DNA of 64,000 bases. Origin: Thermoplasmata archaeon (GTDB lineage Archaea > Thermoplasmatota > SW-10-69-26 > JACQPN01 > JAJPHT01). Position 1 is the first letter of the stretch. The number at the start of each line of letters is the position of its first letter. The stretch is taken from positions 1-64,000 of the forward strand of contig JAXDQU010000034.1 in NCBI GenBank assembly GCA_034667685.1. The letters run 5' to 3'. Positions 22,893 to 30,185 of this stretch are shown one piece after another. Under the pieces are notes generated by a model. It was not told where the DNA came from, ran no database searches, and worked only from the letters and a program-made list of their open reading frames with translations. The position numbers and the translations under genes were made by a program.

Positions 22893-23017
22893 CGTTGTCC
22901 GTCCGCGGCCGGACGGACAAAGGCCCGAAATTTTTGCTCGCGTTCTTCCGCGTGTTACTATGCGCGTTCAGGACTCGCCTCTGGTTTTATCCGCCCATGC
23001 ATCCAGCGCAGGCGCAC

Positions 23018-24418
23018 ATGGCCCGCGCCATCTTCGTTCTGATAACAACCCTCGCCATCGTGCTCGCGCTCGCGCCGGTCGCGCTCGTCGCCGACGCCGC
23101 GCCGGCCCCCGGCGACTACGTCATCGGGTTCCACCACGCGCCCCCCGCCGGCTGGGCCGGATCGCACGGCTTCGCCGCCGCGAAGCGCCTCGATCGGCTC
23201 TCCGCCGTCGTCGTGCACGGCGCCCCCCTCGCGACCCTCCAGCGCGCCGCGCACGATCCCAACGTCGCTTACATCGAACCCAACCAACCTTTGCATACCG
23301 ATTCGACGGGTTGGGATGGAACGGGTTGGGATGGCACCGGTTGGGACGGCACCGGCTGGGACGGGACGGGCTGGGACGGCACCGGCTGGGATGGAACTGG
23401 CTGGGACGGTACCGGCTGGGATGGAACCGGTTGGGACGGGACGGGCTGGGACGGCACCGGCTGGGATGGAACTGGCTGGGATGGAACCGGGTGGGACGGG
23501 ACCGGTTGGGATGGAACTGGCTGGGACGGAACCGGCTGGGACGCGACGCCTGACCCGGGCTACGCGCAGCAGTGGGGCCTCGCCGCGGTGCACGCGCCCG
23601 AGGCGTGGAACCTCAGCGTGGGCACCGGAGCCGTCACGGTCTGCTTCCTCGACACGGGGATCGACGCGACGCACCCGGACCTCGCGGCGCACGTCTACAC
23701 GAACCCGGCCGACGGGAGCCACGGCTACAACGTGATGGACGGCTCGCACGACGTCACCGACGACGTCGGCCACGGCACGTACGTCGCGGGCATCGCGGGC
23801 GCCATCGGCGGCAACTCCGCGGGCATCGTGGGCCTCGCGCAGGAGAAGCTCCTCCCCGTGAAGGTCATGAACGCCTCGGGCGGCTCGGAGGCCGACCTCG
23901 CGGCGGGCATCCTGACGTGCCTCGACCACGGGGCGCGCGTGCTCTCGATGAGCCTGCACACGACGGAGCCCAGCCAGCTGCTCGACCAGGCGATCGACCA
24001 GGCCCTCGCGGCCGGCGCGGTCGTCGTCGCGGCGGCGGGCAACGACGGGACCGACCAGGTGTCCTACCCCGCCTCGCACCCCGGCGTCATCGCCGTGGGT
24101 GCGGCCAACGGCACGGCGGAGCTGGCGCCCTTCTCGAACCACGGCGACCGGCTGGACGTCGTGGCGCCCGGCGTCGGGATCGTCTCGACGGTCCCCGGCG
24201 CGCTCTACGCGGGCGCCGGCGGCACGAGCGCCGCGGTCCCCTTCGTGAGCGCCACGGCCGCGCTGATGCTCGACCTGAACCCGTCGCTGTCGGGCGCACA
24301 GGTGGGCAGCCTGATCGAGGCCCACGCGCGCGACCTGGGCGCCCCCGGCAAGGACACGACCTTCGGTTACGGCGGTTTGGACACCGCCGCGAGCTTGAAG
24401 GCGGCGGTTGGGCAGTAG
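23018..24418 (+). CDS. Secreted S8 subtilase with I9-like propeptide and 16x TGWD(G) repeat insert
   Basis: Signal peptide; propeptide ending VAYIEPN; triad FLDTG, GHGTYVAG, GTSAA; oxyanion AAGN; TTTTAT box at 22985. Confidence 0.92.
   Translation: MARAIFVLITTLAIVLALAPVALVADAAPAPGDYVIGFHHAPPAGWAGSHGFAAAKRLDRLSAVVVHGAPLATLQRAAHDPNVAYIEPNQPLHTDSTGWDGTGWDGTGWDGTGWDGTGWDGTGWDGTGWDGTGWDGTGWDGTGWDGTGWDGTGWDGTGWDGTGWDGTGWDGTGWDATPDPGYAQQWGLAAVHAPEAWNLSVGTGAVTVCFLDTGIDATHPDLAAHVYTNPADGSHGYNVMDGSHDVTDDVGHGTYVAGIAGAIGGNSAGIVGLAQEKLLPVKVMNASGGSEADLAAGILTCLDHGARVLSMSLHTTEPSQLLDQAIDQALAAGAVVVAAAGNDGTDQVSYPASHPGVIAVGAANGTAELAPFSNHGDRLDVVAPGVGIVSTVPGALYAGAGGTSAAVPFVSATAALMLDLNPSLSGAQVGSLIEAHARDLGAPGKDTTFGYGGLDTAASLKAAVGQ
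23306..23545 (+). repeat. Coding 15-bp tandem repeat x16 encoding (TGWDG)15-TGWDA
   Basis: Trp codons every 15 nt from 23312 to 23537; variation between units is synonymous apart from the last unit. Confidence 0.97.
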
Positions 24419-24425
24419 GTGACGC

Positions 24426-26204
24426 GTGTTATCACCTAGGACGAAGGTGATCATCGGGATCGTCACGGCGTTGGCCGCCGCGGCGGTCGTGGCGACCTGG
24501 TCGCTGCGCCCGCCGCGGGCCGACGCCACGAACCTGATGGGATTCGTCCTGCTCTACGGCGTGTTCCTCCTGGCCGAGGGCGCCGTCATCCCGCTCCTCT
24601 GGCGCGGAGAGCGCGTCACGGTGACGTTCACCGAGCCCATCGTGCTCGCCGGGCTCGTCGCGCTCCCCAGCATCCCGCTGGTGCTCGCGGCGAGCCTCGC
24701 GCGGCTGACCGGCGCCACGCTCCAGCGCCGCCCCGCGCACAAGACGCTCTTCAACGCGGCGCAGATCGCCCTCGCCACGAGCCTCGCGCTCCTGGTCGCG
24801 GTCTTCGCCCCCGTGGCGCCGCTCGTGGGCGCCATCCTCGGCATGGTCACGTTCACGGTCGTGGTGGACTGCGTGACGGTCGTCGTGGTCGGCTCCGTCG
24901 AGGAGGTGCCCTGGCGCCGCGCGATCCGCGAGCGCTTCCTGGCCGTGGCGCTCGTCGAGATCGTCTTCGGCGCCAGCGTCGGCCTCGCCATCGTCGGCCT
25001 GGGCCACGTCCATCCGCTCGCCCCGCTGGTGCTCGCGCCGCCGCTCTGGATCATGCTGCGCCACGCGCGCATCCAGGCCAAGATGATGCGCGAGAGCGGC
25101 CTGCACCTGCGCCTGGCCCAGGAGCAGCGCCGCCTCATCGGCATCCAGGACGACACGCTCATCGCCGACGCGATCCTGGAGGCGTGCCACGACATCATGC
25201 AGGTGGGGCGCGCGCGCATCGCGCTCGACGGGCAGCCCGCGTGGGAGCGCACGTGGGACCCCGTGCCCGCGGACGCGGCGCCCGACGTGGGCGTGTCCCT
25301 GGGCGGCGTCGACGGCGTGCCCGCCGGCCGCCTCGAGGTCTGGCGTCGTCCCGGCAAGCCGCGCTTCGAGAAGGACGACGAGGGGCTCCTGCTCCAGCTT
25401 GGCGCGCAGACCGAGACCGCGCTGGCGAACGCGCGGACGCTGCGCGAGGCGAGCGCGCAGCGCGTCGTGCTCGCGCGCCAGGAGCGCCTCTCCACGCTGG
25501 GCACGCTCGTCGCGGGCGTCGCGCACGAGGTCAACAACCCGCTCACGTATCTGCGCGGCAACCTCGAGCTGGCGCTCATGGACCTCGACGAGATGGAGGA
25601 GTCCGAGCGCGTCCACGAGGTCGAGCGCCAGATCGGCATCGCGCTCCAGGGCGCGGGGCGCATCGGCGAGATCGTGCAGTCGCTCCGCGCCGTCGCGCGC
25701 CAGCGCCCCTCCTCCGAGCGCGAGGTCGTGCACCTCAACAAGGCGGTGGAGGACGTGGCGACGGTGCTCCAGTCGAGCCTGCCGGGGAACCTGCGCATGC
25801 GCGTCGAGCGCGCGCGGGGCGACCCCACGATCCTGACGCACCCGACCGACCTGCACCAGGTGCTGCTGAACCTCGCCAAGAACGGCATCGAGGCGCTGGG
25901 CGGCAAGCCCGGCGAGCTCGTCATGCGCGTGCGGGCGCTCCCCTCCTGCTACGTGCTGGAGGTGCAGGACACGGGTCCGGGCATCCCGCCGGAGGCGCAG
26001 GCGAGGATCTTCACGCCCTTCTTCACCACGAAGGGGACGCACGGGACCGGGCTGGGCCTCGCCATCGTCCACGGCATCATCAAGGACATGGGGGGCGCCA
26101 TCCGCTTCGACACCGCGCCCGGCGCCGGGACGACGTTCGTGGTCACGCTGCCCCACGAGCTGAAGGCGCCGGTGGCCGCCAGCCCGCCGCCGGCCTTTCA
26201 ATGA
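24426..26204 (+). CDS. Membrane sensor histidine kinase (7-8 TM MASE-like input, GAF-like segment, HisKA, HATPase)
   Basis: AGVAHEVNNPL, LHQVLLNLAKNG, DTGPGI, FTPFFTTK, GTGLGL; SD-like AGGTGA before GTG; 7 nt after the S8 stop. Confidence 0.92.
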   Translation: MLSPRTKVIIGIVTALAAAAVVATWSLRPPRADATNLMGFVLLYGVFLLAEGAVIPLLWRGERVTVTFTEPIVLAGLVALPSIPLVLAASLARLTGATLQRRPAHKTLFNAAQIALATSLALLVAVFAPVAPLVGAILGMVTFTVVVDCVTVVVVGSVEEVPWRRAIRERFLAVALVEIVFGASVGLAIVGLGHVHPLAPLVLAPPLWIMLRHARIQAKMMRESGLHLRLAQEQRRLIGIQDDTLIADAILEACHDIMQVGRARIALDGQPAWERTWDPVPADAAPDVGVSLGGVDGVPAGRLEVWRRPGKPRFEKDDEGLLLQLGAQTETALANARTLREASAQRVVLARQERLSTLGTLVAGVAHEVNNPLTYLRGNLELALMDLDEMEESERVHEVERQIGIALQGAGRIGEIVQSLRAVARQRPSSEREVVHLNKAVEDVATVLQSSLPGNLRMRVERARGDPTILTHPTDLHQVLLNLAKNGIEALGGKPGELVMRVRALPSCYVLEVQDTGPGIPPEAQARIFTPFFTTKGTHGTGLGLAIVHGIIKDMGGAIRFDTAPGAGTTFVVTLPHELKAPVAASPPPAFQ

Positions 26205-26255: not shown

Positions 26256-27221
26256 TCAGCGCCCGCGGGGCGCGAGGCCGAGCGTCGCGGCCGGGCCGCC
26301 CACGCCCTGGGACGAGCGCTTGACGCGGCGCGCGTCCATGTCCTCGCGCTTGGGCATCCAGACGTTCTTCACGAGGCCGACGCGGCGCAGGACGCGGATC
26401 ACGTAGGCGTTGAAGTCGATCTGGTACCACTTCATGCCGTGGTAGGCGGCCTTGGGGAAGGCGTGGTGGTTGTTGTGCCACCCCTCGCCGAGGCCCAGGA
26501 GGCCGACGACCCACTCGTTGCGGCTCTCGTCGTTGGACTCGAACTCGCGCTGGCCGAAGGTGTGGCAGACGCTGTTGACGGACCAGGTGACGTGGTGGCC
26601 GATGGCGAGGCGCACGAGGCCGCCCCAGAGGACCGCGCTCCAGAACGCGCCCCAGGTGTGGCCGATCGCGAGGCCCGCGAGGCCGGGGAGCGCGAAGGAG
26701 AGGATGGCCCAGAGCCAGAACTGGTTGTCGACCGCGTGCGCGACCTTGTCGTTCTCGAAGGGCTTCGCCCAGACGCCGCTCTTGATCAGGCGGTCGCGGA
26801 AGAGCCAGCCCACGTGCGCGTGCCAGAAGCCTTCGAGGGGGGAGTGCGGGTCGCCCTCCTTGTCGCTCTTGGCGTGGTGCTTCACGTGCGTCGCGGCCCA
26901 CTCGACCGCGGGGCCCTGGAGCGCCATGCTCCCCATCGCCAGGAAGACGAAGCGGACGGCTGGGTAGTCCGACTCGAAGCTGCGGTGCGTGAGCATGCGG
27001 TGGAAGCCCACGCCGATGCCGCAGGCCGTGATGACGTACATGCCCGCGAAGATCCCGACGTCGAGCCACGTGACCCACCGGTTCCAGAGCAGCAGCACGG
27101 CGGCGGCCGTCGCCACGAGGGGCAGGGTCACGACGAGCAGCAGGACGACCTTCTCCCAGGTCGCCGCGACGTGCGCGTCGGGGTCGGCATGGCGTGTCAG
27201 GCGGGTGCGGGTCATTGACAT
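26256..27221 (-). CDS. Delta-9-type membrane fatty acid (acyl-CoA/lipid) desaturase
   Basis: His boxes HRMLTH, HVKHH, GEGWHNNHH; DPHSP; WSVNSVCH. Confidence 0.93.
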   Translation of the reverse strand: MSMTRTRLTRHADPDAHVAATWEKVVLLLVVTLPLVATAAAVLLLWNRWVTWLDVGIFAGMYVITACGIGVGFHRMLTHRSFESDYPAVRFVFLAMGSMALQGPAVEWAATHVKHHAKSDKEGDPHSPLEGFWHAHVGWLFRDRLIKSGVWAKPFENDKVAHAVDNQFWLWAILSFALPGLAGLAIGHTWGAFWSAVLWGGLVRLAIGHHVTWSVNSVCHTFGQREFESNDESRNEWVVGLLGLGEGWHNNHHAFPKAAYHGMKWYQIDFNAYVIRVLRRVGLVKNVWMPKREDMDARRVKRSSQGVGGPAATLGLAPRGR

Positions 27222-27331: not shown

Positions 27332-28132
27332 CTAGAGCCCCGTGGAGACGAGGATTTTCGTCGCGCCCTCGGCGAGCGCCGAATGGTCGAGCAGCCAGAG
27401 GCCGGCGGCGGGCGCCGACGTCGTGTAGGTGCATGCGGGACCCTGGCAGGTCAGCACCGTCGTCCCGGACGGGTCGGTCAGCGTCACGTCGACCGCCGGG
27501 ATCGTCCCCTGCGGGGTCACGTCGACGCGCAGGCGACCGGCGCCCGGCTCGACCACGAACCCCTGCCGCTCGGTCTGCGCGCGGCCCAAGGGCTCGCCCG
27601 GCACGGTGGCGTCGACCAGGACGACGCGCGCGGGCGGAGGCTCCGCCGCCCCGGTGATGGAGAGGCGCGTGGTCGCCGCCGTCGCGTCGGAGCCCGAGTA
27701 GGCCACGCGCCAGAGCCCCGGCCGCGGCGAGGCGACCATCGTGGAGCAGGGCCCGGTGCGGCAGTCGAGCACGAGGCGCTCGGTCGGGTCGAGGAGCCCC
27801 ACGCGCGCGCCGCTCCCGAGGAACAGGCGGCCCGAGGCGGCGCCGTAGCCGACCTCGAAGCGCAGGCCCGTCGTCCCGGCGCGCACCGGCACCACGTCGT
27901 TGCGGGCGTTGCCGAACGTCTGCTGCGAGAAGTCATGCGTCCCCTCGTAGAGCGTTCGCCAGGTCGCGTTCGCCGCGGGGGGTCCGGGCATCGCCGCCGG
28001 CGCGATCGGGGGAAGGGCGCGCGGCGCGTCCACGATCAGGTGCCCCGCCCCCGCGCCGGCCGCGACGACCACGGCGACGAGCGCCGCGAGCCTCGGGGCC
28101 TTCACCTGGGATCGCACCGTGCGCCATGACAT
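27332..28132 (-). CDS. Secreted/membrane-anchored protein with two Cys-pair beta modules
   Basis: Hydrophobic N-terminus; repeats LDPTERLVLDCRTGPC..SPRPGLW and TDPSGTTVLTCQGPAC..SAPAAGLW. Confidence 0.6.
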   Translation of the reverse strand: MSWRTVRSQVKAPRLAALVAVVVAAGAGAGHLIVDAPRALPPIAPAAMPGPPAANATWRTLYEGTHDFSQQTFGNARNDVVPVRAGTTGLRFEVGYGAASGRLFLGSGARVGLLDPTERLVLDCRTGPCSTMVASPRPGLWRVAYSGSDATAATTRLSITGAAEPPPARVVLVDATVPGEPLGRAQTERQGFVVEPGAGRLRVDVTPQGTIPAVDVTLTDPSGTTVLTCQGPACTYTTSAPAAGLWLLDHSALAEGATKILVSTGL

Positions 28133-28415: not shown

Positions 28416-30185
28416 TCAGCCCATCTTCTCCAGCTCGTCCATCATCTCGCCGATCACGCCGAAGCCCTTCTGCCAGAAGCTCTTCTGCGTGATGTCGACG
28501 CCGAGGGGCTTGAGCAGGTCCTGGGGCGACTTGCTGCCGCCGCCGGCCAGCAGCGCCTCGTACTTGGGGACGAACGCCGCGCCCTGCTCGCGGTACATGC
28601 CATAGAGCGCGAGCGAGAGCAGCATGCCGAAGCTGTAGCTGTAGCAGTAGAACGGGCTCGCGTAGATGTGCGGGATGTACTGCCACTCGCGCTGGAAGTC
28701 GTCGGGGACCTCGACGGGGCCGAACTGCTCGCGCACCTGCGCCAGGTAACGCTCGTTCAATTCCTTCGTGGTGGCGCCCTCCATCACCATGCGGTGCGCG
28801 TCCTTCTCGAAGATGACGAAGTACGCCTGGCGCTCGACGGTCGCGTAGATCTCGCCCAGCTTCTCCGAGAGGATCGCGGCGCGGTCCTCCGGCTTCGCCT
28901 CGCGCATGAGCGTGTCGTGCATCAGCATCTCGGCGAAGACGCTCGCCGTCTCGGCCATGGGCAGCGTGCTGTGCGCCACCAGCGGGAAGCGGTCGCGCGC
29001 GAGCACGCTGTGGACCGCGTGCCCCATCTCGTGCGCCAGCGTCTTGAGCGACTGCGCGTCGCCCGTGTGGTTGAGGAAGACGTACGGCGTCATGGTCGAC
29101 GTGACGGTCGCGCAGTAGGCGCCGCCGCGCTTGCCCTCGGCCGGATAGACGTGCACGTGCCGCTCGTCGAAGACGGCCTTCGCCGCGGCCTGGATCTTGG
29201 GGCTGAACGCGCCGAACACGCGCAGGACCTTCTGCTTGGCGTCCTCGTAGGGCACCTCCAGCTTGTCCTTGTTGAGCGGCGCGTAGACGTGATAGCGCGA
29301 GGCGGGCAGGCCCAGCTTCCTCGCCTTCCAGACGAAGTAGCGCTGGAAGACCTGGCGGTTGTCGCGGCAGACTTCCAGGAGCGCGTCGACGGCCTCGTCG
29401 GGCACGTCGTTCCCCTTGTTGCGCACGTTGATCGCGCTGGGGTAGGCGCGCAGCTTCAGGTTCTCGTTGTGCCAGTCGGTCACGACCGTCTGGTAGAGGA
29501 ACGATAGCAGGTTCTCGTTCTGGCCGTAGACGCGCCAAAGCTCCTTGTACGCCGCCTCGCGCACCTTCGGATCGGGGTCGTACACGTTGCGCGTCAGCTC
29601 GGGCTGCGTGACGTCCTTGCCCGTCCTGGGGTCCTTGAACTTGAACGCGGACGTCAGGATCTCGCGCACGCGGTCGTTCGCGCTCTCGCCCGTGATGTCC
29701 TTGAGCGCGATGATCTTCTCCTCGCTCTCCGAGAGCGTGTGCGGCCGGAAGACGCGCACGCGCTCCAGATAGTAACGCTTCTCGGCGTCCTTGGGCATCA
29801 GCGCCGCGGCGCGCGCGTCGGGGAGCGACTTCCACCAGAGGTCGAAGAAGCGCGTGCGGTTCCCGATCTCCGTGGTGAGGTTCTCCATCTTGTTCATGAA
29901 CGCCTGCGTCGCCTCGTCGCGCGTGTCGGCGCTGAACGAGAGGTGGCCGAAGTTCCCCACCCGGCTGGCGAGGTCGCCCAGCTCGACGTCCATCGCGAGC
30001 ACGCGCTCCAGGTCCGCGCTCGTCCTGATCTCCGCGTCGAGCTTCCCGCGCATCGACTCCATCTGCGCGGTGAGCTGCTCCATGCGGTCGAGGATGCGCT
30101 GGAACTCGGGCCCCTCGGTCGCGGGGAGCACCGGCTTGAGGTCCCAGACGATCGGCGCGGGCTTCGCGGAGGCGGACGCGGTCAC
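28416..30185 (-). CDS. pepF: M3B oligoendopeptidase F
   Basis: GKRGGAYC, TLAHEMGH, AETASVFAE, HIYASPFYCYSY. Confidence 0.92.
   Translation of the reverse strand: MTASASAKPAPIVWDLKPVLPATEGPEFQRILDRMEQLTAQMESMRGKLDAEIRTSADLERVLAMDVELGDLASRVGNFGHLSFSADTRDEATQAFMNKMENLTTEIGNRTRFFDLWWKSLPDARAAALMPKDAEKRYYLERVRVFRPHTLSESEEKIIALKDITGESANDRVREILTSAFKFKDPRTGKDVTQPELTRNVYDPDPKVREAAYKELWRVYGQNENLLSFLYQTVVTDWHNENLKLRAYPSAINVRNKGNDVPDEAVDALLEVCRDNRQVFQRYFVWKARKLGLPASRYHVYAPLNKDKLEVPYEDAKQKVLRVFGAFSPKIQAAAKAVFDERHVHVYPAEGKRGGAYCATVTSTMTPYVFLNHTGDAQSLKTLAHEMGHAVHSVLARDRFPLVAHSTLPMAETASVFAEMLMHDTLMREAKPEDRAAILSEKLGEIYATVERQAYFVIFEKDAHRMVMEGATTKELNERYLAQVREQFGPVEVPDDFQREWQYIPHIYASPFYCYSYSFGMLLSLALYGMYREQGAAFVPKYEALLAGGGSKSPQDLLKPLGVDITQKSFWQKGFGVIGEMMDELEKMG

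What the first reader, a model, noticed from the sequence alone, without database searches (positions are those of the whole stretch)
23018..26204. Candidate peptide-signalling operon: subtilase carrying 16 TGWDG repeats at its maturation site, coupled to a membrane sensor kinase
Seen: a secreted S8 protease with an intact D/H/S triad has (TGWDG)15-TGWDA inserted between the end of the I9-like propeptide (VAYIEPNQPLH) and the start of the catalytic domain (TPDPGYAQQWGL). A histidine kinase with a 7-8 TM input domain and almost no extracellular loop starts 7 nt after the protease stop, with its own SD-like AGGTGA. Established: subtilases cleave themselves at the propeptide/mature junction, and multi-TM kinases such as AgrC/ComD sense short peptides within the membrane. 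Inference: maturation frees up to about 16 copies of a Trp pentapeptide per protease, an amplified signal like a polyprotein pheromone, which the adjacent kinase reads. That would be a self-contained quorum or protease-activity sensing module in an archaeon. Alternatives: the repeat is a structural beta-solenoid or Ca-binding spacer, or the kinase is DesK-like and serves the convergent desaturase.
Basis: partly seen in the sequence, partly recalled or inferred. Interest (0 to 1): 0.88.

Follow-up and report, generated by a model that had tools for sequence, protein, structure and literature searches.

The report
Repeat-bearing protease paired with sensor kinase
A soil archaeon encodes a secreted protease that carries 16 identical five-residue tryptophan peptides next to a membrane sensor kinase, and the same pairing recurs in bacteria, so it may be an undescribed kind of peptide signalling, though no experiment has tested this.

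Summary
Window 23018-24418 encodes a secreted S8 protease with 16 TGWD[G/A] units between its prodomain and catalytic domain. A multi-pass membrane histidine kinase starts 7 nt after its stop.

The units are held constant as peptides. Fifteen identical units use 12 DNA versions, and 15 of 15 differences in a related strain are synonymous. AlphaFold2 predicts the array as disordered.

The pairing is specific.
- In this genome, 5 of 5 array-bearing S8 genes have a sensor kinase within 300 bp; 0 of 5 array-less S8 genes do.
- In the genus, 16 of 16 loci examined are paired.
- Among 401 genomes of the phylum, arrays occur only in this genus.
- Of 30 array-less S8 control loci, none is paired.

A distant bacterial S8 subfamily carries similar arrays at its C-terminus. 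There, 22 of 30 genes lie next to MASE9, GAF or TPR signalling proteins with kinase, c-di-GMP or cyclase outputs.

My best reading (0.45) is that the protease carries the signal peptides and the neighbour reads them. Peptide release and sensing are untested. Some partner sensors are cytosolic, and MASE9 proteins in general are not linked to proteases. The DesK/desaturase and beta-solenoid alternatives are not supported. I found no description of this pairing in print.

The parts
23018..24418 (+). Gene for a secreted S8 (subtilisin-family) protease, 466 aa plus stop (P0001)
   Evidence: ORF and translation; Pfam PF00082, 172 bits; fold matches to pro-subtilisins
23018..23095 (+). N-terminal signal peptide-like hydrophobic segment (aa 1-26)
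   Evidence: Read from the sequence. The AlphaFold2 model has a helix at aa 3-17 followed by low confidence. The start is conserved in the G003 orthologue. A cleavage site is inferred, not tested.
23105..23305 (+). I9-like prodomain (aa 30-96), ending VAYIEPNQPLHTDS
   Evidence: The AlphaFold2 beta-alpha-beta-beta-alpha-beta unit has pLDDT 85-93. Foldseek aligns prodomain plus catalytic domain to 3whi and 2e1p. Pfam I9 is not detected.
23306..23545 (+). Array of 16 pentapeptide units: (TGWDG)x15 then TGWDA (aa 97-176)
   Evidence: There are 12 DNA versions of 15 identical units. All 15 differences in a related strain are synonymous. pLDDT is about 30.
23546..24415 (+). Catalytic domain (aa 177-466), with D212 (23651), H252 (23771), N342 (24041) and S404 (24227)
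24417..24422 (+). AGGTGA, a Shine-Dalgarno-like hexamer that overlaps the protease stop and lies 3 nt before the GTG
   Evidence: Function is inferred only.
24426..26204 (+). Gene for a membrane sensor histidine kinase, 592 aa plus stop (alternative in-frame GTG start at 24447)
24426..25100 (+). MASE9-like multi-pass membrane input domain (aa 1-225), about 7-8 hydrophobic segments with short loops
   Evidence: Hydropathy. hhalign against Pfam-positive bacterial MASE9 gives 80.8% probability, E 1.3e-5. Pfam MASE9 scores only 13.7 bits, below the 24.3 cut-off. ESM Atlas: 25 of 30 hits are MASE9-bearing clusters.
25101..25475 (+). Cytoplasmic linker or weakly GAF-like region (aa 226-350)
   Evidence: In the paralogues 4 of 11 hit GAF_2 (best E 4e-4) and the profile hits the DevS GAF domain at E about 0.007. 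The window copy itself has no GAF hit.
25497..25703 (+). HisKA phospho-acceptor domain (aa 358-426), H-box HEVNNP with H367
25842..26159 (+). HATPase_c catalytic domain (aa 473-578), with N, G1 and G2 boxes present

Best explanation
The two genes form a dedicated signal-generator and receiver cassette.

Shown:
- The protease is secreted-type and catalytically intact.
- It carries a disordered array of identical Trp pentapeptides at the spot where subtilases mature.
- The array is conserved as peptide sequence, not as DNA.
- Array-bearing S8 genes, and only those, sit beside a signal-transduction protein. This holds in this genome, in its genus, and in a distantly related bacterial S8 subfamily.

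Inferred:
- After export and prodomain cleavage, the exposed array is cut by the enzyme itself or by sister molecules, most simply after the single large hydrophobic residue of each unit, W.
- That would yield up to about 16 copies of one short Trp peptide per protease molecule.
- The neighbouring kinase reads these peptides, or the array itself, through its MASE9-like membrane domain and changes its autophosphorylation.
- Where the partner sensor is cytosolic (GAF kinase, cyclase-TPR), the peptides would have to be imported first.

The output would report cell density or extracellular protease activity. The five paralogous cassettes in this genome have different units (TGWDG, SSGWD, SSRWD, AQWNG twice) and could act as partly separate channels.
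For: 1. Selection on the peptide.
- 15 identical TGWDG units are written in 12 DNA versions, and only the 4 synonymous sites vary. In the SSGWD paralogue, 15 identical units use 12 versions, including switches between TCN and AGY serine codons.
- A related strain in an independent soil sample differs at 15 positions inside the array, all synonymous.
- The 73%-identical orthologue keeps the TGWDG unit, with 14 copies.

2. Location and disorder.
- The array lies between the prodomain end and the residue where solved mature subtilisins begin.
- pLDDT is about 30 in the archaeal model and in the bacterial model.

3. Specific linkage.
- G000: 5 of 5 array S8 genes have a sensor within 300 bp; 0 of 5 array-less S8 genes have one within 3 kb. 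The genome holds 20 kinase ORFs in 3.48 Mb.
- Genus: 16 of 16 loci examined.
- Metagenome control of array-less relatives: 0 of 30.

4. Only S8 and the kinase are shared among the five loci.

5. Independent replicate. A distant S8 subfamily has C-terminal arrays. In one search, 22 of 30 rows have a signalling ORF within 1.5 kb (21 of 29 after removing one gene listed twice). Two more were found. Outputs differ (HK, HD-GYP, GGDEF, GGDEF-EAL, cyclase) and keep their catalytic motifs. Varied outputs beside one constant partner suggest that the protease acts on the input side.

6. Within the AQWNG clade, closely related proteases sit next to two unrelated kinase types. A sensor neighbour was therefore kept through a change of partner.

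7. Precedent. Extracellular proteases mature tandemly duplicated Phr pheromone propeptides (PMC11343458, abstract).
Against: - No peptide, cleavage site or kinase response has been observed.
- Several partner sensors are cytosolic (GAF-HK in G000 C13; bacterial GAF-PAS-HK; cyclase-AAA-TPR). These need an import step for which no conserved transporter was seen.
- Units are heterogeneous in some paralogues. G002 copies keep only W[DN] plus small residues.
- The same AQWNG unit pairs with two different sensors.
- MASE9 proteins in an unbiased sample are not next to S8 genes, 0 of 11.
- The window kinase has no response regulator beside it.
- The archaeal cassettes are kin, so 16 of 16 is not 16 independent events.
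- One bacterial array gene with full flanks has no detected signalling neighbour (L187).
Confidence: 0.45

Rival explanations
1. Regulated-protease cassette. The neighbouring kinase (in bacteria, c-di-GMP or cAMP enzymes) senses something else, such as starvation or envelope state, and controls production, export or activity of the protease. The array is not a diffusible signal. It would be a disordered tether, a surface anchor, or a sacrificial pseudo-substrate 'fuse' that delays activation.
For: - Co-transcription geometry fits: 7 nt separate the two genes.
- Response regulators sit in some cassettes.
- Cytosolic partner sensors fit an inward-looking regulator.
- Heterogeneous units in some paralogues fit a compositional rather than sequence-specific role.
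- From recall, DegS-DegU controls subtilisin expression in Bacillus.
Against: - None of the neighbours has a DNA-binding output, and most are first-layer transducers.
- It does not explain why only array-bearing S8 genes have such neighbours: 5 of 5 against 0 of 5, and 0 of 30 controls.
- It does not explain why units are identical at peptide level with scrambled codons.
- In bacteria the array ends the protein, so it links nothing.
Confidence: 0.27
2. Tethered ligand or inside-out docking. The Trp/Asp array stays on the enzyme and binds the membrane sensor or the membrane interface. This would hold the protease at the cell surface. The sensor would either report occupancy or, like LapD with LapG (recalled), release the protease on an intracellular cue.
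For: - Periodic Trp suits the membrane interface (general knowledge).
- MASE9-type partners are recurrent.
- The authors who defined MASE9 propose that its ligand binds within the membrane (preprint 10.1101/2021.11.05.467447, passages).
Against: - Soluble partner sensors cannot dock an extracellular tail.
- GGDEF, EAL and HD-GYP motifs of the partners are intact, unlike a degenerate LapD-type receptor (motif definitions recalled).
Confidence: 0.1
3. The array yields a peptide product that the neighbour does not read, for example a modified natural product (RiPP-like multi-core precursor), an antimicrobial, or a metal- or Ca-binding tail. The sensor adjacency would then reflect only shared regulation.
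For: - Perfectly repeated cores resemble multi-core precursors such as fungal ustiloxin or plant BURP-domain peptides (recalled).
- Asp recurs every five residues.
Against: - No modifying enzyme or transporter is conserved among the five loci.
- Adjacency to signalling genes recurs across two domains of life with different outputs.
Confidence: 0.07
4. Structural repeat. The array folds into a beta-solenoid (pentapeptide-repeat-like) or Ca-binding spacer domain of the mature enzyme.
For: The five-residue period has a central large hydrophobic residue and a small residue two positions before it. That loosely recalls the pentapeptide-repeat consensus (recalled).
Against: - There is no Pfam Pentapeptide hit at E<=0.01.
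- pLDDT is about 30 for the array in both AlphaFold2 models, while the flanking domains score above 85. Both alignments are shallow (19 and 15 rows).
- Copy number varies from 5 to about 30 among relatives.
- Structural repeats rarely stay 100% identical.
Confidence: 0.06
5. DesK-like thermosensor. The kinase serves the convergent fatty-acid desaturase at 26256-27221(-), and its position after the protease is incidental.
For: The desaturase lies 52 nt beyond the kinase stop, convergent. A desaturase is also present about 1 kb from the kinase in the G003 orthologue.
Against: - The kinase has HisKA (PF00512), not the HisKA_3 of DesK-type kinases (family definition recalled).
- A desaturase is found at only 3 of the archaeal loci searched: the window, its orthologue, and one about 7 kb away. 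The kinase accompanies the protease at all 16.
Confidence: 0.02

Closest known systems
Rap-Phr (RRNPPA) quorum sensing of Bacillus, with tandemly duplicated Phr propeptides
   Same: Short peptides, often pentapeptides, are cut out of exported precursors by extracellular proteases. Some precursors hold several pheromone copies in tandem, and the receptor gene is adjacent (PMC11343458, abstract read; search listing).
   Different: - Here the repeats are part of the protease itself, with 16 identical copies.
- The adjacent receiver is a membrane histidine kinase (or GAF, MASE9 or TPR signalling enzymes), not a Rap/TPR phosphatase.
- The organism is an archaeon.
- Nothing has been shown experimentally.
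Yeast alpha-factor polyprotein processed by Kex2, an S8 kexin
   Same: Tandem identical pheromone copies are released by a subtilisin-family protease. One precursor yields several signals.
   Different: - In yeast the precursor and protease are separate proteins.
- Dibasic KR spacers define the cuts there; here there are no spacers and no basic residues.
- The yeast receptor is a GPCR.
AgrBDCA and ComQXPA peptide quorum sensing (recalled)
   Same: A short peptide, Trp-containing in ComX, is read by a multi-pass membrane histidine kinase encoded beside the precursor.
   Different: - AgrC and ComD belong to the HPK10 type, whereas this kinase has HisKA plus HATPase_c.
- No AgrB- or ComQ-like modifying enzyme is conserved at the loci.
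- Here the precursor is fused to a protease.
MASE9 membrane sensor domain (Galperin and Chou preprint 10.1101/2021.11.05.467447; passages read)
   Same: It has eight predicted membrane segments with short loops. It is found with HD-GYP, GGDEF-EAL and other outputs. Its ligand is unknown and is proposed to bind within the membrane. Six bacterial neighbours of array proteases pass the Pfam MASE9 cut-off.
   Different: - The window's domain is below the Pfam cut-off (13.7 against 24.3 bits). It is related only at profile level (80.8%).
- The preprint does not mention proteases: 0 occurrences of protease, subtilisin or peptidase.
- Classical short MASE9-HD-GYP genes are not next to S8 genes, 0 of 11.
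Multi-core peptide precursors fused to or processed by their enzyme, such as plant BURP-domain cyclases and fungal ustiloxin UstA with Kex2 (recalled)
   Same: Many identical short core peptides sit in one polypeptide. In the BURP case they are in the same chain as the processing enzyme.
   Different: Those make modified natural products, not signals read by an adjacent sensor. No modifying enzyme is seen here.

Membership tests
Peptidase S8 (subtilases) | Match to the family profile above its curated cut-off | tested here: met
   PF00082, 172.3 bits against cut-off 21.8, aa 205-452
Peptidase S8 (subtilases) | Catalytic Asp/His/Ser in that order, plus the oxyanion Asn | tested here: met
   D212, H252, N342 and S404 are invariant in 19 sequences
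Peptidase S8 (subtilases) | N-terminal I9-type prodomain packed on the catalytic domain | tested here: met
   Pfam I9 is not detected. The model aligns over 442-479 columns with unprocessed pro-subtilisin E (3whi) and pro-Tk-subtilisin (2e1p), TM-score 0.81-0.89 on the target.
HisKA-type sensor histidine kinases | HisKA and HATPase_c domains above cut-off, with H, N, G1 and G2 boxes | tested here: met
   HisKA 37.4 bits against 26.9; HATPase_c 93.9 bits against 26.4. HEVNNP, NLAKNG, DTGPG and GTGLGL are present (box definitions recalled).
MASE9 membrane sensor domain (PF20972) | Match above the Pfam gathering score (24.3 bits) | tested here: not met
   The window domain scores 13.7 bits, E 0.061. 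MASE9 is the top family for 4 of 12 archaeal domains, all below cut-off, best E 7e-4.
MASE9 membrane sensor domain (PF20972) | Remote homology and the architecture of about 8 membrane segments with short loops | tested here: inconclusive
   hhalign against two Pfam-positive bacterial MASE9 domains gives 80.8% probability, E 1.3e-5, over 133 columns, with shared RR..K..FN and FR..F motifs. ESM Atlas: 25 of 30 hits are clusters in which 11-18% of members carry MASE9, score 0.92. Hydropathy agrees.
AgrC/ComD-type (HPK10) peptide-sensing kinases | HPK10-type kinase core (Pfam HATPase_c_5, no HisKA); definition recalled | tested here: not met
   The window kinase matches HisKA plus HATPase_c and shows no HATPase_c_5 at E<=0.01. 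It may work like these kinases but is not a member.
DesK-type thermosensor kinases | HisKA_3 dimerisation domain, and conserved linkage to a desaturase and a DesR-type regulator; definition recalled | tested here: not met
   HisKA (PF00512) is found, not HisKA_3. A desaturase is found at 3 of the archaeal loci searched, one of them 7 kb away.
Pentapeptide-repeat proteins (PF00805, right-handed beta-helix) | Profile match and a folded quadrilateral beta-helix | tested here: not met
   No Pfam hit at E<=0.01. The array has pLDDT about 30 with no regular strands.
Polyprotein pheromone precursors (alpha-factor, tandem Phr) | Tandem copies of one short peptide in an exported precursor | tested here: met
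   16 units follow a signal peptide-like N-terminus
Polyprotein pheromone precursors (alpha-factor, tandem Phr) | Mature peptide detected and active on a receptor | not testable with these tools
   This needs mass spectrometry and receptor assays
RiPP multi-core precursors | A dedicated modifying enzyme encoded in the cluster | tested here: not met
   Only the S8 and kinase families are shared among the five G000 loci within 7 kb

The most novel reading that the evidence does not exclude
Array-bearing subtilases would be self-contained 'poly-pheromone' generators, a class of peptide signalling found in both Archaea and Bacteria. The maturation protease and many copies of the signal would be one polypeptide. 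The adjacent MASE9, GAF or TPR protein would be the receptor, feeding phosphorelay, c-di-GMP or cAMP outputs. That would be the first peptide-based cell-cell or protease-activity signalling proposed for an archaeon. It would also give the first ligand class for a subset of the orphan MASE9 sensors.
Probability: 0.38. Interest if true: 0.92.

Novelty: new variant of a known kind. Interest (0 to 1): 0.84.

Why it matters
- Quorum sensing in archaea is described as largely unexplored, and its signals are mostly unknown (PMC13464002, introduction passages).
- The ligand of MASE9 is unknown (preprint).
- This finding gives both questions a concrete, testable handle: a defined synthetic pentapeptide, a two-gene cassette, and homologues in bacteria that may be culturable. 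One such homologue is in an Ilumatobacter genome.
- If the reading is wrong, the strict pairing of array-bearing proteases with signalling proteins across two domains of life still needs an explanation.
- The codon-scrambled, peptide-identical arrays are also a clean natural case of selection for copy number of a short peptide.

Tried and rejected
- Co-fold of the membrane domain (alignment A2) with 8 units of the array: score 0.02 against a mark of 0.32, no verdict. This is not evidence either way.
- Sequencing runs: no RNA holder is listed. Only soil or rhizosphere DNA contigs were found, so co-transcription could not be checked.
- NCBIfam: no specific family for the protease, kinase, regulator or bacterial counterparts. 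Only sub-threshold generic models matched.
I stopped that step.
- The scan of metagenome contigs with alignment A1 returned 80 loci, 78 of them ordinary array-less S8 genes. I used these as the control set.
- phmmer of the array alone against 1.84 billion representatives gave 3383 hits at E<=0.001. Of the best 150, only 29 have a Trp period-5 array and 14 of those 29 are S8. The rest are mostly other Gly/Thr/Asp-rich repeat proteins or short fragments. So Trp arrays are not exclusive to S8 proteins.
- The genome-contig pattern scan hit many off-frame repeats. 19 of the 52 ORFs of at least 200 aa with an in-frame array are S8.
- A general link from MASE9 to S8 is rejected: 0 of 11 in 80 further genomes of one bacterial phylum.
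- A conserved third gene (modifying enzyme, transporter) was not found.
- The DesK/desaturase and beta-solenoid readings are not supported.
- Four literature searches found no description of such proteases or of this pairing. Supplements were not available, so the MASE9 preprint's Figure S5 could not be checked.

Full report
WHAT IS THERE

The window has 72.4% G+C. It belongs to an archaeon: two tandem TBP genes are present in the genome. The organism occurs in soil metagenomes.

The ORF 23018-24418(+) encodes a 466-aa protein, P0001. Its layout, N- to C-terminus:
- a hydrophobic, signal-peptide-like N-terminus;
- a prodomain (aa 30-96);
- an array of exactly 15 TGWDG units plus one TGWDA (aa 97-176, nt 23306-23545);
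- a Peptidase_S8 catalytic domain (PF00082, E 1.9e-50) with D212, H252, N342 and S404 intact.

Pfam does not call an I9 propeptide. The AlphaFold2 model (mean pLDDT 78.7) aligns over 442-479 columns with unprocessed pro-subtilisin E (3whi) and pro-Tk-subtilisin (2e1p). Solved mature subtilisins begin to align at P0001 residues 178-185. The array therefore sits exactly between the prodomain and the canonical mature N-terminus.

Seven nucleotides after the stop, a GTG opens a 592-aa histidine kinase at 24426-26204 with HisKA and HATPase_c domains. Its H, N, G1 and G2 boxes are intact. The first 215 residues hold about 7-8 hydrophobic segments with short loops.

THE ARRAY IS CONSERVED AS PEPTIDE, NOT AS DNA

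- The 15 identical TGWDG units are written in 12 different DNA versions, and only the four synonymous sites vary.
- In the SSGWD paralogue, 15 identical units use 12 versions, and serine switches between the TCN and AGY codon families.
- The 73%-identical orthologue in a sister genome keeps the TGWDG unit with 14 copies.
- Contigs of an independent soil sample (X2) match the first half of the array without any difference.
- A related strain (X3) differs at 15 positions inside the array, all synonymous. Outside the array both synonymous and replacement changes occur.

This pattern is what selection for many copies of one exact short peptide would give. It is not expected from recent slippage or from a free linker. 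Some paralogues, in genome G002, are heterogeneous and keep only W[DN] flanked by small residues.

THE ARRAY IS PREDICTED TO BE DISORDERED

pLDDT is about 30 across aa 97-176, while both flanking domains exceed 85 (19-row alignment). A bacterial C-terminal array behaves the same way (15 rows). There is no Pfam Pentapeptide hit. The solenoid alternative is thus not supported, with the caveat that both alignments are shallow.

THE PAIRING WITH A SENSOR IS SPECIFIC

I scanned all stop-to-stop ORFs of the window's genome (3.48 Mb, 124 contigs). There are 10 S8 ORFs, and five of them carry Trp period-5 arrays:

| Contig | Unit | Copies |
|---|---|---|
| C34 (the window) | TGWDG | 16 |
| C71 | SSGWD | 16 |
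| C13 | AQWNG | 7 |
| C10 | SSRWD | 4+5 |
| C124 | AQWNG/AEWNS | 5 |

All five have a sensor kinase within 300 bp. None of the five array-less S8 ORFs has a kinase or regulator within 3 kb. The genome has 20 kinase-core ORFs in all. Period-5 Trp runs in this genome occur in S8 ORFs in 6 of 7 matches, and the seventh is a likely spurious frame.

Within 7 kb of the five loci, only the S8 and kinase families are shared. Response regulators are present at two of the loci.

In the four other genomes of the genus, 11 further array loci with usable flanks all have an adjacent kinase. The tally is therefore 16 of 16 loci examined. One more locus lies on a 3.4-kb contig and cannot be judged. One search did not list every match, so further loci may exist.

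A pattern scan of 401 genomes (162 genera) of the phylum found arrays only in this genus: 5 of 5 of its genomes, and 0 of the 396 other genomes searched. The reversed-pattern control gave 2 hits.

As a control I took the nearest array-less S8 relatives from metagenomes. Of 78 such genes, 30 had at least 2.5 kb on both sides, and 0 of these 30 had any signalling ORF within 1.5 kb.

Distances between S8 catalytic domains and between kinase cores of the 13 pairs are correlated (r = 0.65; 0 of 5000 permutations reach it). This shows that the pairs were inherited together. Kin are not independent, so it shows no more than that. One detail is informative: closely related AQWNG proteases sit beside two unrelated kinase types, a soluble GAF kinase with a regulator and a membrane PAS kinase. 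A sensor neighbour was thus retained through a change of partner.

A SECOND, INDEPENDENT OCCURRENCE IN BACTERIA

A scan of one genome per species found a distant S8 subfamily. Its phmmer E-values to P0001 are 1e-11 to 1e-20, against 1e-40 to 1e-60 for ordinary S8 proteins. Members occur in Chloroflexota, Actinomycetota and other MAGs. Each has an N-terminal signal peptide and an array at the very C-terminus, for example (ITWDN)12, (VTWDN)16 or (MSWDG)28, ending in [YFLI]-D.

After fetching flanks, 22 of 30 array genes had a signalling ORF within 1.5 kb. That is 21 of 29 after removing one gene listed twice. Of the 8 rows without:
- six lack one flank or sit in a tandem S8 cluster;
- L030 has only 397 nt downstream;
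- L187 has full flanks and no such neighbour.

Two more S8 genes, with variant arrays (ITWEG/VTWES, and a WVSSTWDGSR decapeptide x14), also sit beside MASE9 proteins.

Pfam identifies these neighbours:
- MASE9-PAS-HisKA-HATPase
- MASE9-GAF-HD-GYP (two)
- MASE9 with GGDEF, GGDEF-EAL or GGDEF...HD-GYP
- GAF-GGDEF-EAL
- GAF-PAS-HK (six)
- adenylate/guanylate cyclase-AAA16-TPR (two)

Their GG[DE]EF, EAL and HD..GYP motifs are intact.

The constant element is thus the array protease, and the variable element is the output of the neighbour. That pattern is what one expects if the protease feeds the input side.

WHAT THE KINASE'S MEMBRANE DOMAIN IS

It is below the Pfam MASE9 cut-off (13.7 against 24.3 bits), although MASE9 is the top family for 4 of 12 archaeal copies. 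A profile of the 12 archaeal domains aligns with two Pfam-positive bacterial MASE9 domains at 80.8% probability, E 1.3e-5. In ESM Atlas, 25 of 30 feature hits are MASE9-bearing clusters. I call it MASE9-like, not a member.

The region between the membrane domain and HisKA is weakly GAF-like in 4 of 11 paralogues.

The authors who defined MASE9 describe eight membrane segments, no known ligand and probable in-membrane binding. They mention no protease (passages only, supplements closed).

The reverse association is not general. In the five bacterial genomes chosen for having array proteases, 7 of 11 MASE9 genes are next to one. In 80 further genomes of one phylum, 0 of 11 MASE9 genes (all short MASE9-HD-GYP) are.

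HOW IT MOST LIKELY WORKS

Shown:
- the anatomy of the two genes;
- peptide-level selection on the array;
- predicted disorder of the array;
- the specific, cross-domain pairing with signalling proteins.

Inferred:
- After export and prodomain cleavage, the exposed array is cut by the enzyme or by sister molecules.
- W is the only large hydrophobic residue in each unit and would be the natural P1 residue for a subtilisin (recalled preference).
- Many copies of one Trp peptide are released and the neighbour reads them.
- For soluble GAF or TPR partners, the peptides must first be imported. No conserved transporter was seen.

I put this reading at 0.45. The main rival, at 0.27, is that the neighbour regulates the protease and the array is a tether, an anchor or a sacrificial fuse. 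That rival does not explain three things:
- why only array-bearing S8 genes have such neighbours;
- why none of the neighbours has a DNA-binding output;
- why the units are kept identical.

A tethered-ligand or inside-out model (0.10), an unrelated peptide product (0.07), a folded spacer (0.06) and the DesK/desaturase idea (0.02) follow. The last fails for two reasons. The kinase has HisKA rather than HisKA_3. A desaturase is found at only 3 of the archaeal loci searched, one of them 7 kb away.

COMPARISON WITH WHAT IS KNOWN

The closest described systems:
- Bacillus Rap-Phr with tandemly duplicated propeptides matured by extracellular proteases (PMC11343458, abstract);
- the yeast alpha-factor polyprotein cut by the S8 protease Kex2 (recalled);
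- Agr and ComQXPA, in which a multi-pass kinase reads a short peptide (recalled).

This cassette differs in four ways:
- the peptide copies are fused to the protease itself;
- there are no spacers or basic processing sites;
- the kinase is of HisKA type with a MASE9-like input;
- no modifying enzyme is present.

NCBIfam has no specific model. Public records call these proteins only 'S8 family serine peptidase' or give no name. Four full-text searches found no description of them. A recent paper states that archaeal quorum sensing remains largely unexplored (PMC13464002, passages).

LIMITS

- There is no expression, cleavage or binding evidence.
- The co-fold gave no verdict, and no RNA run is listed.
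- ORFs were called stop-to-stop and domains were detected by single-sequence phmmer plus spot checks with Pfam. Some neighbours may have been missed.
- The archaeal loci are related by descent, and the bacterial sample is small and partly from a few genomes.

Noticed in passing
window 28416-30185 (-): An M3 oligoendopeptidase F gene (PF01432, PF08439) lies 2.2 kb beyond the kinase. From recall, PepF degrades Phr pentapeptides in Bacillus. It is not shared by the other four cassettes of this genome.
   Followed up: partly
window 27332-28132 (-): A 266-aa protein with a hydrophobic N-terminus and no Pfam family lies between the desaturase and the M3 peptidase.
   Followed up: no
window 22929-22936: An AAATTTTT stretch stands out in a 72% G+C window, about 85 nt upstream of the protease start. 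It could be an archaeal TATA-like element. One public gene call starts the protease at ATG 22997, 7 codons earlier.
   Followed up: partly
G000:C106:23192-24910 (-): This is a fifth MASE9-like protein of the genome (573 aa). It has no kinase-core hit and no S8 gene within 3 kb, so it is an orphan sensor with an unidentified output.
   Followed up: partly
G000:C13:7677-8555 (+): An array-less S8 homologue has one in-frame TGA inside the match. It may be a pseudogene or a sequencing error.
   Followed up: no
L177, L178, L179, L065, L109 and others (C-termini): The bacterial arrays run to the very end of the protein, which finishes with [YFLI]-D. A conserved 'PLxWKD..Y.G' segment precedes many arrays. 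The terminal Asp suggests that the natural unit ends in W-D.
   Followed up: no
L184 6694-9726 (+): One bacterial array protease has an N-terminal Ice-binding-like domain (PF11999, E 1e-121) fused before the S8 domain.
   Followed up: no
P0122 (1154 aa): This protein has about 92 consecutive WNGQV-type units and no detectable S8 domain. Several short proteins consist only of WDGMG units and may be fragments or off-frame calls.
   Followed up: no
L179 6187-9123 (-), L083 874-3810 (+): Two array proteases are followed by an adenylate/guanylate cyclase-AAA16-TPR (STAND-like) protein. Its TPR sensor recalls the peptide-binding receptors of Gram-positive quorum sensing.
   Followed up: partly
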